DNA of 64,000 bases from Mizuhopecten yessoensis (taxonomy: Eukaryota), in assembly GCF_002113885.1 (NCBI RefSeq), contig NW_018403842.1, positions 74,291 through 138,290 of the forward strand, in the 5' to 3' direction. Positions 36,001 to 54,000 of the stretch are shown in pieces. A program made the position numbers. How positions within the stretch are numbered: the stretch's first letter is position 1; each line of letters opens with the position of its first letter.

Positions 36001-39000
36001 ATATGATACTGAGCTGGGTATACACTAAGCTGTGTATGTAATACGGATATAAACAAAGATATGATACTGAGACGTGTATACACTAAACTGTGTATGTAAT
36101 ACGGATATAAACAAATATATGATACTAAGCTGTGTATACACTAAGGTGTGTATGTAATACGGATATAAACAAAGATATGATACTGAGCTGCGTATACACT
36201 AAGCTGGGTATGTAATACGGTATAAACAAATATATGATACTGACCCGTGTATACACTAAGCTTTGTATGTAATACGGATATAAACAAAGCTATGATACTG
36301 AGCTGTGTATACACTAAGCTGTGTCTGTAATACGGATATAAACAAAGATATATTACTGAGACGTGTATACACTAAGCTGTGTATGTAATACGGATATGAA
36401 CAAAGATATGATACTGAGCTGTGTATACACTAAGCTGTGTATGTAATACGGATATGAACAAAGATATAATACTGAGCTGTGAGTACATTAAGCTGTGTAT
36501 GTAATACGGATATAAACAAAGCTATGATACTGAGCTGTGTATACACTAAGCTGTGTATGTAATACAGATATAAACAAAGATATGATACTGAGCTGTGTAT
36601 ACACTAAACTGTGTATGTAATACGGATATGAACAAAGATATAATACTGATCTGTGAGTACATTAAGCTGTGTATGTAATACGGATATAAACAAAGATATT
36701 ATAGCAAACGTACGGTTCCAAAGGCGATTTCCAAGTTGTGACGTCATACCCGTCTTCCTTTCAAGACAGTTGCATACTCCGGTTCCATCGTTATATGTAG
36801 CTGCCTTACATTTGATAGTGTTCATGCAGCTCGTGAGACAGGCGATCAGGGATAGCTCGGTATTGGTCAACAGTGATGGTCCGTACAACTGGTCAGTGCC
36901 ATCTACGTCCTCCAGCCAATCGGACGCTCTGGATGACGTCCCCCTCACTGAAATTTCAAGTGACTACATATGACACTTGTAAACATAATCAAGCAGTTAA
37001 ATTTTTATTCATCCCATACAAATCTGTACAGTGTATCCGTTGTGGAATTCTAAACAAAGTAGCAGACGTTTCGTCCAAAGACGGAAAGATATTTTTTTGT
37101 CTGGTATCAAGCTTAATAAACAGTTTATAGATAAATTAATTTTGACAACCAATTTATATTGAAATCCTTACATATAAATATGTTATATATATTGGAGACA
37201 GGCAGCAACTGTGGCTGGAATCATCTAGCAATATCCAACGTTTTGGAAATGTTGTAATTTTTAAAATATTTTACAATCATCACATACATGAAAAAAATAT
37301 TACATTACACATTTTCGACATTTAAATCAAACCTCACCTCTCAGGAAAACTGGTGAGTGTAATTTATAAAATTTCTATTTTAATGTTTTTAATTTCGTTT
37401 AATTACCGCGATTGCCTGTAAAAACCGTTTTCAACATTCGTAACTAAACATTTTGTTCACGAAAAAATGTTACTATCATTTACTGCATGCCAATTATACT
37501 CAATAATGAATCCGAGAAATATAAATTATATCAGAATTTAATACAATTTTCCTTCAACTTCACTTTTTTTTTTTCATTTTGAATATTCCACTATTTTATT
37601 AACACATTAATATACTTACCATGTTGATATCTGGTGTTGATAAGATAAACCAATGCTAGAATCTTCCTTACGATGTACATTGCTGTAGTCTGATCTCAAG
37701 TGTTTAAGATACATATGCAAGACCACGCACTTGTGTTTTTCTAACGAATCAGAAAGCACTCATTTATTGCGCGGACGAATATATTCACGAGTGCGCGGAG
37801 TTCACGAGTGAATATATTCGTCCGCGCAATAAATGAGTGCTTTCTGATTCGTTAGAAAAACACAAGTGTGTGGTCTTGCTTTCATCACATACCTTCCGTA
37901 TTTGGTAGAGATCGATACAAAGATTTTATAAACTTTGATGATATTTTTGGCAAATACCGGGAACTTTTCAGCTCGCCATGACATGGGAATTCCCCTAAAA
38001 AGTAGTTCCGGCTAGTATGGTGATACCATACCGACAGAAAACATCAACAGAAAATTGTTCTATTACTATTGTAAGATTACATAGGTATGTGATAAACATG
38101 TATACCACACAAGGAAAGTCGATATGACAATCTGGGAATCTAGACCTGTGTCTGGTTGAATGGTTTCCAATTGGTTCCTCTGGTACATGTTTGTAAATAG
38201 CTAATGACTAATTAGCAATAAGTATTCATGGTTAAAAAATATCCGTGACATTAAGAAAGCTTGTTTAGTGTTTAAGACCCTGCAATAGTCACATGAGGAC
38301 GCGGTTACCAAGGGAGACAATGTATGGAAGTTCAGTCTCACGTTCATAATTGATCAGTGTGTTTTCGTGAGGAATCCAGGATATGGCTTATATATTGCGT
38401 CGTTAGTCTAAGGATTCGTTAAGACTTTTTTTAAATTGAATTATGGTTTTCTAATGATTATGAGGGTAATTATTGTGACCCAATGGTTTGCTTACTTTTC
38501 TTAATGTTATTTGGCGTTAAGAGCATAACAACAAAAGAATACCAAAATGTGTACAAAACCACAATTTGAACTCAAAATCGATAAAACTACGGCAACAATA
38601 TGAAGAAAATAAAATATGTACATGGAGAATATTAAAAAAAAAGATACAATGAGATTATGACCATGTGTTCCGGTAGTAAGCCGACTCCAAGTAATGTTAC
38701 GTCCTCGCATCGAGAACTCGGGCATATACAACAAAACCAAAAGGCATAAATAAAATACACAATATGTAATAAAGTAATAGAAGAATCGAATAATACTTTC
38801 AAAAATAAACCATTTATTTCAAAAACCTAACTCCCAATAACATAATAAGCAACAGAAGAATCTATGGTGTTCTTGATGTCAACCTCAGAAATGTTTATAC
38901 AATGGACGTGGTCAATTACTTCCGTTATTCACCAATTGTAGATATGTCTTAAAGTGTTATTGATAAGGTCTTTCTTTTTAAGTCCTGACAAGCTCATGTA

Positions 39001-51000: not shown

Positions 51001-54000
51001 TGTATATCAATATATGGTTTTAGAACATCTTTATAGAGAAACTTTATCATTCGCCTATAATGAAAGAAAAATATGGCGAATTATTCTAACACAATTTGCT
51101 ACCGTTAGGTCCTCTAAGCTTTGCAGTTTTACCTTTGTTTCTGTTCCCCCAGATGGGCACACGTTCTGGCTCGGCGGGTCAGATTGGACAACTGAAGGGG
51201 AATGGGTCTGGGAGCCCGAGGGAACCCCCTTCTTGTATAAAGACTGGGCAAACAAACAGCCGGACAACCACGCCAATCAGGACCACTGTCTCGCCCTGGA
51301 GGGGTCGGTACACTTCCAGTGGACAGACGAGAACTGTCAGGACACGAACAGATATATCTGTGAAAGAAGGTAAGTCATCTGAAGTGTCAGGAACTTGAAA
51401 TCATATGAAAAAGAAATATGAAACATCACACCTAGAAAAGTAATGTGAAACGTCACACATAGAAAGAAAATATAAGCACCACACCTTAAAACGAAATGTT
51501 AAACACAACACTCCACACCTAGAACAGAAACAGGAAACGTCACACCTAGAAAAGGAACGGAAAACGTCACACATAGAAAAAGAACGGGAATCGTCACACC
51601 TAGAAAATTAATCGAGAAGCATCACAATGAGAAATGAAACGTAATTAAGCATTGAACTGTTTTTGTATGGTATTTATGATCTATTTGAATGACACAGCTT
51701 TGCAAGCAAACAACATAATGTCATCATAAATACCATAAATAGATCATAAATACCATACAAAAACAGTTCAATACTTATATTTACCTTTTTTCTCTGCCTG
51801 TTATGTTCTTTTTTAACTTACAATTTATATTTAGAATTTAAAATTCCCGCCTTATCGACAGTCCACACAAATTCGTTCAATAGTTGGAACAGCGTGGTGT
51901 TGCGTGCTGATTGGCAAACAAAGTAGTACTTTGAAATTTTAACAAACACTTCAATTTTGTTGTGACTCATATCAGTAGGTCTGTAACATATGTGTCAGTA
52001 GGTCTATAGAATATGTGTATTGCAGACATTTGTAACGAATCCATGTTGATCAGTGCAGTGTAACAGACGATATTTCTGATAAATTGCATGAGTGTTAAAA
52101 TTGTTTCCATTGCCGGAAATTGGTAATTTCAACCGATGTGCATTTTGTACGATATTGCAGACCTTACTCTTGTTTTTGTTGTAATAAATTATTTTTTTTT
52201 TATATTTTCTTTTTTCTTTTGCACATAAATTTACAATAACAATGGCAAGTCTCACAATGCCCAGCAATATTTCCGCAGCCGTCATGTTTATNAATATTTT
52301 TTTTTATATTTTCTTTTTTCTTTTGCACATAAATTTACAATTACAATGTCAAGTCTCACAATGCCCAGCAATATTTCCGCAGCCGTCATGTTTATTTACA
52401 TTGGATATTGTAGTTCCGGTCAGTGTTGTATTAATACGCTTAGAATTGTGTCCCGTGCTGCATGGTAATAAAAGTCCCTTCAACGACACTGCTTTCAAAG
52501 AGGCTATATAGTGACAATGCCATGCACATGTAAATATATCATTATGAATTAGTCTACAACGTGCAATATCTTGAATATCTTGTAATTTGTGCTATCAAGC
52601 GTGTGCTAGAAATATATTGTAAATCATGTGATGTATGATAAAAAACAATTTTAAAAACATGTTTCCTATTTTATATGTAACAAATTCGCGGTGTTTATAA
52701 CTTTCATGCAACTCACTGAATAGACAACAACCGAACAAAAACAGAAGGGCAATGGATGTGTTAAAATAGATATATTGCACATATTACAGGCGGCACATGT
52801 TATGAAAACAACATCGCTAAAGTACAACCGGTTTCGTGACATTTGTCATCGAAACCATTCATATCAAATGTCCCCAGCTGTCTTTATGGCCGACGAATTA
52901 TTCAATGCGTTTCTTCACCTTATGCTTACACCATCGCATTTGGTTTTATTTTGTTGTCTTCTCGGCAAAATTCATTGTCTGACCGATTCTGTTTCATCTA
53001 ACGTTGGTGATTGAGTGGCACAGTAGATAGCGTCCTCACAATTCATCAAGACGGCTGGTGTTTTATTCCCCGATAGGACGTGAAAAGGTATGGGGTCACC
53101 TGCCTGACCACATCTGTTTTTTCCGGGTACTCCGGTTTCCTCCCACATTAATACCCTATGGGTACTATCATTCGGGCCAACAAGAGCGATGAATGTAAGT
53201 TGCTGGAACTTTTAGTTTTAGTTTAATGTAATGTCCTCTTGTGTCTGTTTACCATTGACTGTTATACTACATGGTGTGTTTATCATTCCAGTGCTTACAG
53301 TGACATCGTAACAACCATTGCACCCATTATTGAGACCGCAGGTGTTTAGAACAGGAAGGACAGGGTAGGACAAGAATGTATGTACGAGCAAATCAACCGT
53401 CACGCAAATGAATTATACTTTGAAAAAATAAAGTTTTCTTGTTCATTAATTTGGTTTTGTTTTTAGTATTGTGATGATAAACCTCATAGTACGAATCTAT
53501 CGAGTATTCTCGTCATGCCCCTGGGCAAGTAAACACATATCTAACGAGGAGTGTGGACAAGTTTTATGGTTGCCATCAGTGTTTCACAGGGAAATATGCT
53601 ATAATTTGTGTAATATGAAGGTAGATGTTTTTTTATTATGCCCACCAATAGTAATAATAATAATAATAATGCGAGGTCCTTATATACCGCTTTATCACAA
53701 CCTAGTTCGTCTCAACCAGCAAAAATCTTTCTCAACTCACTGGGGAGCATATAGCCGGTGCGCAATTTTGGCGCTCACAGCTAGCATTCAATAGTTCTAT
53801 CACTGCCCAACCAAGTACTCATTTACAGCTGAGTAGACCGGAACAAGCCGAGTAAAGTATCTTGCTCAAAGATACAACACAGTGCCGTGACTAGAACCCA
53901 CAACCCTTCAGTCACGCGCCCGGCGTCATACCACTGGACCACCCTGCCTCCTAAAGTGCCTAGTGGTTTTGTTGTGACTGCCTGAGTTCTCAATGAGGAG

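What the first reader, a model, noticed from the sequence alone, without database searches (positions are those of the whole stretch)
37717..52543. Recurrent split-palindrome elements that would form one longer palindrome if circularised
Seen: elements with unrelated sequences share one design (37717-38096, 41984-42593, 51646-52543; weaker at 39014-40050 and ~3860-4480). Each has a long hairpin at one end, and the 9-18 nt just beyond the hairpin's inner arm are complementary to the far terminus. Joining the two ends extends the hairpin. The 41984 element has a short direct repeat AAGG(G)AAT at both ends, matching CAGGAAT at the empty paralogous site. Known: tyrosine-recombinase transposons (Cryptons) lack classical TIR/TSD, carry short terminal direct repeats and are thought to move through circles. 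Inference: these are non-autonomous elements integrated from a circular intermediate by crossover inside one palindrome arm.
Basis: partly seen in the sequence, partly recalled or inferred. Interest (0 to 1): 0.66.

Follow-up and report, generated by a model that had tools for sequence, protein, structure and literature searches.

The report
Helentron-type transposon relics in scallop
These are short non-coding mobile-DNA relics whose ends (a hairpin preceded by a short repeat that pairs with the opposite tip) match the already described Helitron2/Helentron rolling-circle transposons, so the pattern is real but largely ordinary apart from unusually long hairpins.

Summary
The pattern is real for two elements and explained by a known design. 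Element A (37710-38102) and element B (41984-42593) each have a long palindrome at one end. The 14-15 nt abutting its inner arm are complementary to the far tip. Few random controls do as well. Diverged paralogous copies lacking each element place the ends at these features. Element C (51646-52540) has only a 9-nt match, which is chance level alone, but it carries B's repeat motif at both expected places. The two "weaker" cases are at chance level. [quoted passage not shown] is the published hallmark of Helitron2/Helentron/HINE rolling-circle transposons, which are reported to pass through circles with joined ends (PMC3627910, PMC4067079, PMC5148889). Nothing supports a tyrosine recombinase: 0 of 144 ORFs match one, and none matches Rep/helicase either. 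Departures from the family are palindromes of 132-163 nt, no clear T^T target, and a 6-7 nt direct repeat at B. The window is probably Yesso scallop. Genome-wide copies could not be searched.

The parts
37710..38102 (-). Element A, whole (389 bp plus one ambiguous TA); the hairpin end is taken as the 3' end, so the element reads on the minus strand
   Evidence: Paralogue P3 aligns up to 37711 (=47762) and resumes at 38101 (=47761). Junction sequences were read: AAGA-TA-[CATATG...AACATG]-TA-TACC against AGGA-TA-TACC.
37717..37879 (.). A: 163-nt palindrome (77-nt arms, 9-nt loop), 5-7 nt from the element tip
   Evidence: 96% complementary. DNA fold including 30 nt of flank gives -92.0 kcal/mol. 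Only sub-threshold Rfam hits to miRNA-precursor models, on both strands.
37880..37894 (-). A: subterminal (3') inverted repeat, directly abutting the palindrome
   Evidence: pairs with 38083-38096 at 13 of 14 nt.
38083..38096 (-). A: terminal (5') inverted repeat, 4-6 nt from the tip fixed by the empty site
   Evidence: Tip position.
47761..47762 (.). Site in paralogue P3 that lacks element A (GGATA|TACC)
28924..28955 (-). Remnant of A in paralogue P1: 5 nt plus the first 27 nt of the outer palindrome arm, followed by a deletion of about 535 bp relative to P2
   Evidence: sequence; 28359-28955 = 37132-37743, then 28959-29018 = 38279-38341.
41984..42593 (-). Element B, whole (about 603 bp plus a 7/8-nt direct repeat AAGGAAT / AAGGGAAT; the true ends lie somewhere within that repeat)
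   Evidence: paralogue P1 carries one copy (C)AGGAAT at 31522-31528 with both flanks aligned.
41984..42139 (.). B: imperfect palindrome of 156 nt (core arms 41999-42035 / 42087-42123)
   Evidence: 89%. Extension to 41984/42139 by eye, and the same extent in a sub-threshold Rfam hairpin hit. Fold -41.7 kcal/mol with flank.
42133..42150 (-). B: subterminal (3') inverted repeat, overlapping the base of the palindrome by 7 nt
   Evidence: 15 exact nt, 42136-42150 with 42575-42589.
42575..42593 (-). B: terminal (5') inverted repeat
   Evidence: A 6-bp stem TTTACA/TGTAAA just inside it is not above shuffles (54 of 200 fold as well).
31522..31528 (.). Site in paralogue P1 that lacks element B (single CAGGAAT); either pre-insertion, or a deletion between the two direct repeats
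51646..52540 (-). Element C, ends inferred from the design only (no empty site). Contains one N at 52292 (left as is) and a 104-bp x2 tandem repeat at 52193-52395
51646..51777 (.). C: 132-nt palindrome (41-nt arms, 50-nt loop)
   Evidence: 98%.
51774..51786 (-). C: hairpin-adjacent repeat CTTATATTTACCT, the same motif as in B (1 mismatch)
52528..52540 (-). C: far-end copy of the motif (GATATATTTACAT on the minus strand; 9 exact nt pair with 51776-51784)

Best explanation
A, B and C are old, non-autonomous members of the Helitron2/Helentron branch of rolling-circle transposons (HLE2; the non-coding forms are called HINEs or DINE-1-like). They lie in an intron-rich or intergenic stretch of a tandemly triplicated lectin/PAN gene region, probably of the Yesso scallop.

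Read on the minus strand, each element is: 5' tip, short terminal inverted repeat, non-coding body of 0.2-0.75 kb, matching subterminal inverted repeat, long hairpin, 3' tip.

Inferred mechanism, taken from what is published for the family and not shown here. A Rep/helicase (HUH, two-tyrosine) transposase encoded elsewhere nicks the 5' end and unwinds the strand. It recognises the 3' end through the hairpin and the pairing of the two repeats. It then joins the ends into a circle, which is inserted at a new site without a classical target duplication. In that circle the subterminal repeat, the hairpin and the terminal repeat form one longer stem-loop with the junction inside or beside the stem.
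For: Shown here:
- The terminal/subterminal complementarity abuts the hairpin and exceeds chance for A and B.
- Independent paralogue comparisons put the element ends 4-6 nt outside the terminal repeat and 5-7 nt outside the hairpin for A. For B they fall within the 7-nt repeat at both structures.
- B and C have otherwise unalignable bodies but share the repeat motif at both corresponding places (the 3 sites with at most 1 mismatch in 64 kb are all at predicted positions). They also share an 11-mer in the arms. This fits a transposon family defined by its ends.
- No coding capacity: 0 of 144 ORFs of at least 65 aa match a Rep, helicase or recombinase family; no tRNA; no Rfam family reaches its gathering score.

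From papers (passages read):
[quoted passage not shown] The 5' one is 0-2 bp from the end; the 3' one is immediately upstream of the hairpin. Their pairing is proposed to set the end point of replication (PMC3627910).
- Helentron/HINE: 12-15 bp subTIRs 2-4 nt from the 5' tip, then a 3' palindrome (PMC4067079).
- Oyster Cg_HINE: 11-12 bp subTIR followed by a palindrome (PMC7492417).
- HLE2: TIRs of 11-18 nt plus a stem-loop after the right repeat (PMC11417382).
- Joined-end circles for Helraiser (PMC4778049) and FoHeli1 (PMC5148889).
- Variable 7-19 bp duplications flank some Helitron2 insertions (PMC3627910, abstract).
- Helitron-like elements are the most abundant DNA transposons in an oyster genome (PMC7992393).
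Against: - No autonomous partner or Rep/helicase remnant is in the window, and the genome could not be searched. The link to the enzyme therefore rests on end architecture alone.
- The palindromes are 132-163 nt, against 5-10 bp palindromes in mite HINEs and 16-20 bp in oyster Helitron-like elements (PMC4067079, PMC7992393).
- The family's T^T target is not seen for A. The paralogous empty site allows only A^T, T^A or a TA duplication. B is compatible with T^T but also with a 6-7 nt duplication.
- The 5' hairpin/IR described for Helitron2, DINE-1 and Cg_HINE is not supported. Shuffles fold as well in 88 of 200 (A), 54 of 200 (B) and 199 of 200 (C).
- Only three copies were seen, one of which (C) is not significant by itself.
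- B's 'empty' site could be a deletion between the direct repeats.
- About 25 nt outside the far tips of B and C also resemble each other. This is unexplained and could mean the true 5' end lies further out.
Confidence: 0.6

Rival explanations
1. One reading: non-autonomous Crypton-like elements. A tyrosine recombinase integrates them from a double-stranded circle by crossover inside one arm of a long palindrome, leaving short direct repeats.
For: B is flanked by AAGGAAT/AAGGGAAT, and the site lacking it has one CAGGAAT. That looks like a shared recombination core. Joining the ends gives a longer palindrome. No classical TIRs are present (read).
Against: A has only a TA ambiguity, so no common core length exists. 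B's repeat follows automatically from the terminal repeat overlapping the hairpin base by 7 nt, and a deletion between the repeats would give the same 'empty' site. No tyrosine recombinase is in the window (0 of 144 ORFs). A hairpin plus asymmetric inverted repeat is described for Helitron2/Helentron (PMC3627910, PMC4067079). In the one passage I read on Crypton ends (PMC3627910), only short terminal direct repeats are named. That Cryptons lack such hairpins in general is my recollection, not a test.
Confidence: 0.07
2. Non-autonomous elements of another or an undescribed superfamily. Examples: a TA-duplicating cut-and-paste MITE that acquired a foldback, or a single-tyrosine HUH (IS200/IS605-like) system. 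The likeness to Helitron2 ends would then be convergent.
For: Atypical features: very long palindromes, no T^T target for A, a possible TA duplication at A and a 6-7 nt duplication at B, and no 5' hairpin. No enzyme is linked.
Against: No terminal inverted repeats reach the very tips (read). The duplication lengths differ between A and B. The specific geometry (repeat immediately upstream of the hairpin, partner at the opposite tip) is the Helitron2 hallmark (PMC3627910). IS200/IS605-type elements carry hairpins at both ends, but here only one end has one.
Confidence: 0.15
3. Not mobile elements at all. These would be local palindromes made by replication or repair errors, with the 'empty sites' being deletions in diverged paralogues and the distal complementarity being chance.
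For: The paralogues are only about 68-78% identical around the sites and full of indels. P1 shows a deletion starting inside A's palindrome. C's match is at chance level. B's site could be a repeat-mediated deletion.
Against: Both indel ends of A coincide within 4-7 nt with the hairpin and with the complementary tip. The complementarity itself is rare: 1.25% of random probes, and 1 of 200 (A) and 0 of 200 (B) in folds. B and C share the motif at both corresponding places at unrelated loci.
Confidence: 0.08

Closest known systems
Helitron2 group (Bao & Jurka 2013, PMC3627910; called HLE2 in HELIANO, PMC11417382)
   Same: Short asymmetric terminal inverted repeats, with the 3' one immediately upstream of a 3' hairpin and the 5' one at or near the tip. 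The pairing of the two is proposed to mark the end of the element. Some members are flanked by variable-length duplications. Non-autonomous derivatives share only the ends.
   Different: Published 3' repeats sit about 20-30 bp from the 3' end, which implies short hairpins. Here they sit about 150-170 nt from it because the palindromes are 132-163 nt. The 5' hairpin is not supported. The TTTT^T/C or T^T target is not seen for A. No Rep/helicase has been linked.
Helentron / HINE / DINE-1-like elements, including oyster Cg_HINE (PMC4067079, PMC7492417)
   Same: 5' subTIR a few nt from the tip, 3' subTIR followed by a palindrome, no coding capacity, bivalve host, and occasional internal tandem repeats (C holds a 104-bp x2 repeat).
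   Different: HINE palindromes are 5-10 bp in mites and 'short' in oyster. A TT target and runs of T at the ends are typical, as are an IR and a microsatellite next to the 5' subTIR. None of these is evident here. The Cg_HINE sequences are in supplements that I could not read.
FoHeli1/2 of Fusarium oxysporum (PMC5148889)
   Same: Helitron2-type ends with a 12-bp inverted repeat whose 3' copy is part of or next to a hairpin.
   Different: Fungal, autonomous (5-6 kb). Conserved TCAG...ATTTT tips and a TNAT^T target. The hairpin is short and 38-51 bp from the 3' end.
Canonical Helitron (HLE1), including oyster Helitron-like elements with subTIRs (PMC7992393)
   Same: 3' hairpin as terminator and a circle intermediate (PMC4778049). 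An A^T reading of the insertion site is possible for both A and B.
   Different: No 5'-TC or 3'-CTRR tips under any reading of A. Hairpins are 16-20 bp in HLE1.
Crypton (tyrosine-recombinase transposons)
   Same: No classical TIRs or target duplication. Short terminal direct repeats, as at B. A presumed circle.
   Different: No tyrosine recombinase is at hand. The hairpin-plus-asymmetric-repeat design is not among the Crypton features named in the passage read (PMC3627910). A lacks a repeat longer than TA.

Membership tests
Helitron2 / Helentron / HINE (HLE2) | 3' inverted repeat lies immediately upstream of a 3' hairpin | tested here: met
   A: 37880-37894 abuts the palindrome end at 37879. 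B: 42133-42150 overlaps the palindrome base by 7 nt. C: 51774-51786 overlaps it by 4 nt.
Helitron2 / Helentron / HINE (HLE2) | Matching 5' inverted repeat of about 8-18 nt lies 0-4 nt from the 5' tip | tested here: met
   A: 13 of 14 nt, 4-6 nt from the tip fixed by the P3 empty site. B: 15 exact nt, 0-7 nt from the tip. C: 9 nt, tip not independently known. Chance controls.
Helitron2 / Helentron / HINE (HLE2) | Short 3' hairpin (stems of about 5-20 bp) some 8-35 nt from the 3' tip | tested here: inconclusive
   A hairpin is present at the right place, but the arms are 37-77 nt and it ends 0-7 nt from the tip. Presence is met; size and distance are atypical.
Helitron2 / Helentron / HINE (HLE2) | Insertion between T and T, with no target duplication | tested here: inconclusive
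   A: the empty site GGATA|TACC allows A^T, T^A or a TA duplication, but not T^T. B: T^T is possible, but 6-7 nt are repeated. The reference sites are paralogues only about 68-72% identical, and n = 2.
Helitron2 / Helentron / HINE (HLE2) | 5' hairpin or IR that involves the 5' repeat (Helitron2, DINE-1, Cg_HINE; absent in mite HINEs) | tested here: not met
   z = -0.02 (A), -0.53 (B, a 6-bp stem TTTACA/TGTAAA), +1.80 (C). Shuffles fold as well in 88, 54 and 199 of 200.
Helitron2 / Helentron / HINE (HLE2) | Autonomous partner with the same ends encoding Rep/helicase (with or without endonuclease) | not testable with these tools
   None in the window (0 of 144 ORFs). No eukaryotic genome collection was available.
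Helitron2 / Helentron / HINE (HLE2) | Many dispersed copies sharing the ends | not testable with these tools
   Within the window only B and C share end motifs. A's remnant in P1 is a segmental duplicate, not a transposition.
Canonical Helitron (HLE1) | 5'-TC and 3'-CTRR tips | tested here: not met
   No reading of A's junctions gives TC...CTRR. B can start with TC only under the T^T reading, and then ends ...TCAT.
Crypton | Tyrosine recombinase encoded by autonomous copies | not testable with these tools
   None in the window. The genome was not searchable.
Crypton | Short terminal direct repeats matching a single copy at the empty site | tested here: inconclusive
   B: 7/8 nt against one copy in P1. 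A: only TA.
IS200/IS605-like (single-tyrosine HUH) | Subterminal hairpins at both ends, no inverted repeats | tested here: not met
   Only one end has a hairpin, and the other end does not fold above shuffles.
Cut-and-paste MITE (DDE) | Terminal inverted repeats at the very tips and a fixed-length target duplication | tested here: not met
   The tips of A (CATATG.../...AACATG) and B are not inverted repeats of each other. The ambiguity is 2 nt at A against 6-7 nt at B.

The most novel reading that the evidence does not exclude
These could be a distinct, undescribed lineage of palindrome-ended circle-forming elements in pectinid bivalves. The breakage-joining site would lie inside the stem of a 150-200-nt palindrome, and the target would share a short core with the element tip (AGGAAT at B). 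That would point to a site-specific recombination step, by a tyrosine recombinase or an unusual HUH enzyme, rather than ordinary Helentron transposition. The shared 15-nt block 8-13 nt outside the tips of B and C would then be part of a recognised target or of a longer end.
Probability: 0.1. Interest if true: 0.6.

Novelty: new member of a known kind. Interest (0 to 1): 0.25.

Why it matters
If the assignment holds, the finding adds little conceptually. It shows that a reader without tools rediscovered the Helitron2/Helentron end architecture, and that scallop genomes carry such relics. I found no description of these in the searchable library.

Two modest points of interest remain. First, the 3' hairpins are roughly an order of magnitude longer than those described. 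Their arms stay 89-98% complementary although A predates a paralogue split that now shows about 25% divergence. Second, the 'joined ends make one stem-loop' view gives a concrete picture of what the transposase may recognise at the circle junction.

Practically, such long palindromes are hotspots for deletion. P1 lost about 535 bp starting inside A's arm. They also resemble hairpin-RNA precursors in structure-only Rfam hits.

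Tried and rejected
1. Searching for distal complementarity at every other hairpin in the window. I tested 14 hairpins or inverted repeats on both sides. Only A and B stand out among the hairpin-ended candidates. Two other scores of at least 12 were not followed: 6746-6793 left side (12.0) and 61162-61551 left side (14.0, a low-complexity AT-rich match 2.6 kb away).
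3. Whether B and C are paralogous copies of one insertion. Rejected. P3 homology to P2 ends near 48273, the bodies do not align, and the left flanks are unrelated. The right-flank resemblance is marginal (3% of 493 random windows) but in register, and remains unexplained.
4. The 5' hairpin feature: not above shuffles.
5. Rfam and tRNA scans, to see whether the bodies are SINE-like or known RNAs. There were 0 tRNAs and only sub-threshold, both-strand hits of the palindromes to plant/animal miRNA-precursor models. I read these as generic long hairpins.
6. Literature string search for the repeat motifs: 4 papers held at least one term, 3 were listed, and all listed ones were unrelated.
7. Searches for scallop Helentron/HINE descriptions: none found among the listed papers.
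8. MAFFT alignment of the B and C ends: the hairpin alignment was uninformative.
9. The prokaryotic genome-contig collection was not scanned, because the window is animal DNA.

Full report
Setting. The window is AT-rich animal DNA (GC 31-46% per 2-kb block) with many minisatellite arrays. One exon-like ORF (50975-51370) is 100% identical over the matched part (54% of the query) to the NCBI protein 'perlucin-like protein [Mizuhopecten yessoensis]'. A LINE reverse-transcriptase fragment has oysters as its best named relatives, at 62-66% identity. I therefore take the source to be the Yesso scallop. It is not human. ORFs and exons were searched one at a time. The N positions (8034, 26435-26703, 52292) were left untouched.

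The region 24.5-48.3 kb holds three diverged tandem copies of one unit: P1 about 24.5-33.2 kb, P2 33.2-42.7 kb, and P3 42.7 to about 48.3 kb. Each carries minus-strand C-type lectin and PAN exons. These paralogues serve as natural 'with/without' comparisons.

The observation. Long palindromes are present as described:
- A: 37717-37879, 77-nt arms, 96% complementary.
- B: core arms 41999-42035 / 42087-42123, 89%; extended with indels to 41984-42139.
- C: 51646-51777, 41-nt arms, 98%.
- D: 39023-39121, 49-nt arms, 82%.

The stretch just inside the hairpin is complementary to the far end in A and B. In A, 37881-37894 pairs with 38083-38096 at 13 of 14 nt. In B, 11 exact nt lie outside the hairpin, or 15 exact nt (42136-42150 with 42575-42589) when the hairpin base is included. 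Of 400 random 24-nt probes searched in the same way, 1.25% reach A's score, 2.25% reach 11 and 0.25% reach 14. The 15-nt figure comes from a run with longer probes and a larger search space, so its null is approximate.

I also attached the far 30 nt to the hairpin end in a script. This lowers the DNA folding energy by 8.3 kcal/mol for A (1 of 200 random tips as good), 11.3 for B (0 of 200) and 5.2 for C (16 of 199).

C's own complementarity is 9 nt, which 17.75% of random probes reach. The two 'weaker' elements are at chance level.

The ends.
- Element A. P3 aligns with P2 up to 37711 and again from 38101. The junctions read AAGA-TA-[CATATG ... AACATG]-TA-TACC against AGGA-TA-TACC. A is therefore a 389-bp block plus one ambiguous TA. 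Its tips lie 5-7 nt outside the palindrome and 4-6 nt outside the complementary stretch.
- P1 keeps the first 32 nt of A (28924-28955) and then lacks about 535 bp. A thus entered before P1 and P2 separated, and was later half deleted in P1.
- Element B. P1 has a single (C)AGGAAT where P2 has AAGGAAT ... AAGGGAAT around 603 bp. That repeat is a by-product of the design, because the far-end repeat overlaps the base of the palindrome by 7 nt. The far tip therefore necessarily repeats the outer tip. P1 may be a pre-insertion site or a deletion between the two repeats. I cannot tell which.
- Element C has no empty site.

Relatedness. A is unrelated to B and C. B and C do not align overall, but they share the hairpin-adjacent motif CTTATATTTAC and its far-end partner. 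In 64 kb, the only 3 sites matching the 13-mer with at most 1 mismatch are at predicted positions, and the fourth predicted position matches with 2 mismatches. In total there are 14 sites with at most 2 mismatches, against 6.3 expected. B and C also share the 11-mer ATAAATACCAT in the arms. This is the pattern of a transposon family held together by its ends, and it rescues C as a member. A's motif has one further 1-mismatch site at 49258-49270, with no hairpin beside it.

What it is. The arrangement 'tip - short inverted repeat - body - matching inverted repeat - hairpin - tip' is the published terminal structure of the Helitron2/Helentron branch of rolling-circle transposons.
- Bao and Jurka (PMC3627910, passages read) describe asymmetric terminal inverted repeats of 8-15 bp. 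[quoted passage not shown] They propose that the pairing of the two marks the replication end point.
- Thomas et al. (PMC4067079, passages) describe 12-15 bp subTIRs 2-4 nt from the 5' tip and a 3' palindrome in Helentrons and their non-coding HINE/DINE-1 derivatives.
- The oyster Cg_HINE elements have an 11-12 bp subTIR 'followed by a palindrome' (PMC7492417, section 7 and passages).
- HELIANO defines HLE2 by TIRs of 11-18 nt with a stem-loop after the right repeat (PMC11417382, passages).
- Circles with precisely joined ends were shown for Helraiser (PMC4778049, passages). A joined-end PCR product was obtained for the Helitron2-type FoHeli1 (PMC5148889, passages).

Joining such ends puts the two repeats on either side of the hairpin and so lengthens it. 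The geometric insight is right, but the design is known and belongs to a HUH Rep/helicase system, not to Cryptons.

Because the elements are non-coding, strand cannot be fixed independently. [quoted passage not shown] It is equally compatible.

Against a simple filing.
- No Rep/helicase, and no tyrosine recombinase, is encoded in the window. Of 144 stop-to-stop ORFs of at least 65 aa outside the tandem arrays, 0 match such families. The 36 ORFs inside the arrays or the N run were dropped before the scan. The clear hits, also seen in the earlier scan of ORFs of at least 110 aa, are a Mutator-like transposase, a reverse transcriptase, lectin and PAN.
- The palindromes are far longer than those published.
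- A's empty site offers no T^T reading.
- The 5' hairpin/IR feature is not supported.
- B shows a 6-7 nt repeat, although variable 7-19 bp duplications are reported for some Helitron2 elements (PMC3627910, abstract).
- A 15-nt block, ATTAG(N)CTACAAYGTG, lies 8-13 nt beyond the far tips of both B and C and nowhere else in the window. The flank similarity is marginal when tested blindly (3% of 493 random windows). I have no explanation for it. It could be a target preference, a longer 5' end, or chance.

Limits. No eukaryotic nucleotide collection, Repbase or Dfam was available. Copy number, consensus ends, the autonomous partner, and whether these families are already catalogued all remain unchecked. 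Library searches found no description of Helentron/HINE elements in scallops and no paper printing the motifs in a relevant context. This covers only the open-access library.

Verdict. Best reading: relics of Helitron2/Helentron-type non-autonomous elements with unusually long 3' palindromes (confidence about 0.6). Novelty: a new member of a known kind. Interest is low to moderate.

Noticed in passing
24500-48300: Three diverged tandem paralogous units carry minus-strand C-type lectin and PAN exons. Identity is mosaic: 96.7% between P2 33563-34371 and P3 43041-43849, but about 68-78% in most other blocks. This suggests gene conversion or staggered duplication.
   Followed up: partly
28955-28959 (P1) versus 37744-38278 (P2): P1 lacks about 535 bp, starting 27 nt into the outer arm of A's palindrome. 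This is a deletion with one breakpoint inside the long palindrome.
   Followed up: partly
38380-39777: A P2-specific block of about 1.4 kb is absent from P1 and P3. It contains palindrome D (39023-39121), a second imperfect palindrome at about 39685-39762 close to its right edge, and an internal 95-bp direct repeat (39266-39358 / 39464-39558). At the paralogous place P3 has its own 30-nt-arm hairpin (48056-48122). The ends could not be resolved.
   Followed up: partly
42594-42620 and 52541-52563: The sequence just outside the far tips of B and C shares ATTAG(N)CTACAAYGTG at nearly the same offset. It occurs nowhere else in the window. The similarity is marginal in a blind test and unexplained.
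   Followed up: partly
7655-10543: Three head-to-tail copies of a composite repeat. Each has a conserved block of about 50 nt, a 39-bp minisatellite array, an A-rich run, and a conserved 88-nt block (copies at 8370-8457, 8906-8993, 10456-10543). This is reminiscent of the tandem-repeat-carrying HINE-like elements of bivalves, but I did not test its ends.
   Followed up: partly
31630-33114: A 5'-truncated non-LTR reverse-transcriptase fragment (RVT_1 plus DUF6451) is inserted in P1 only. The best named relatives are oyster proteins at 62-66% identity.
   Followed up: partly
11167-13207: A broken Mutator-like transposase (two ORFs, E 2e-26 and 3e-21) is followed by an ORF with a sub-threshold YqaJ-like recombinase match (20.8 bits against a cut-off of 22).
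   Followed up: no
35273-36703: A 58-bp minisatellite (24.7 copies, 91% matches) is present in P2 and essentially absent at the paralogous point of P3 (45684-45686). It overlaps the reading frame that runs on into the PAN exon.
   Followed up: no
46122-46403; 24869-24908: A MITE-like element of 282 bp has 37-nt terminal inverted repeats (95% complementary). One similar terminal repeat copy lies in P1.
   Followed up: no
15559-15630 and 61011-61057; 61162-61551: Two hairpins with 18-nt arms have similar sequence and similar left flanks, so they form a small repeat family. Next to the second lies a 79-nt-arm inverted repeat with a 232-nt spacer.
   Followed up: no
37717-37879 and 41984-42139: Palindromes A and B give sub-threshold Rfam hits to several miRNA-precursor models on both strands (for example 85.8 bits against a gathering score of 101). 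These are structure-only matches. The palindromes could still be sources of hairpin small RNAs.
   Followed up: no
2-1177; 54852-56734; 51409-51607: Further minisatellite arrays: 37-bp x32, 22-bp x85, and 27-bp x7. The last lies between the plus-strand perlucin-like lectin exon and palindrome C.
   Followed up: no
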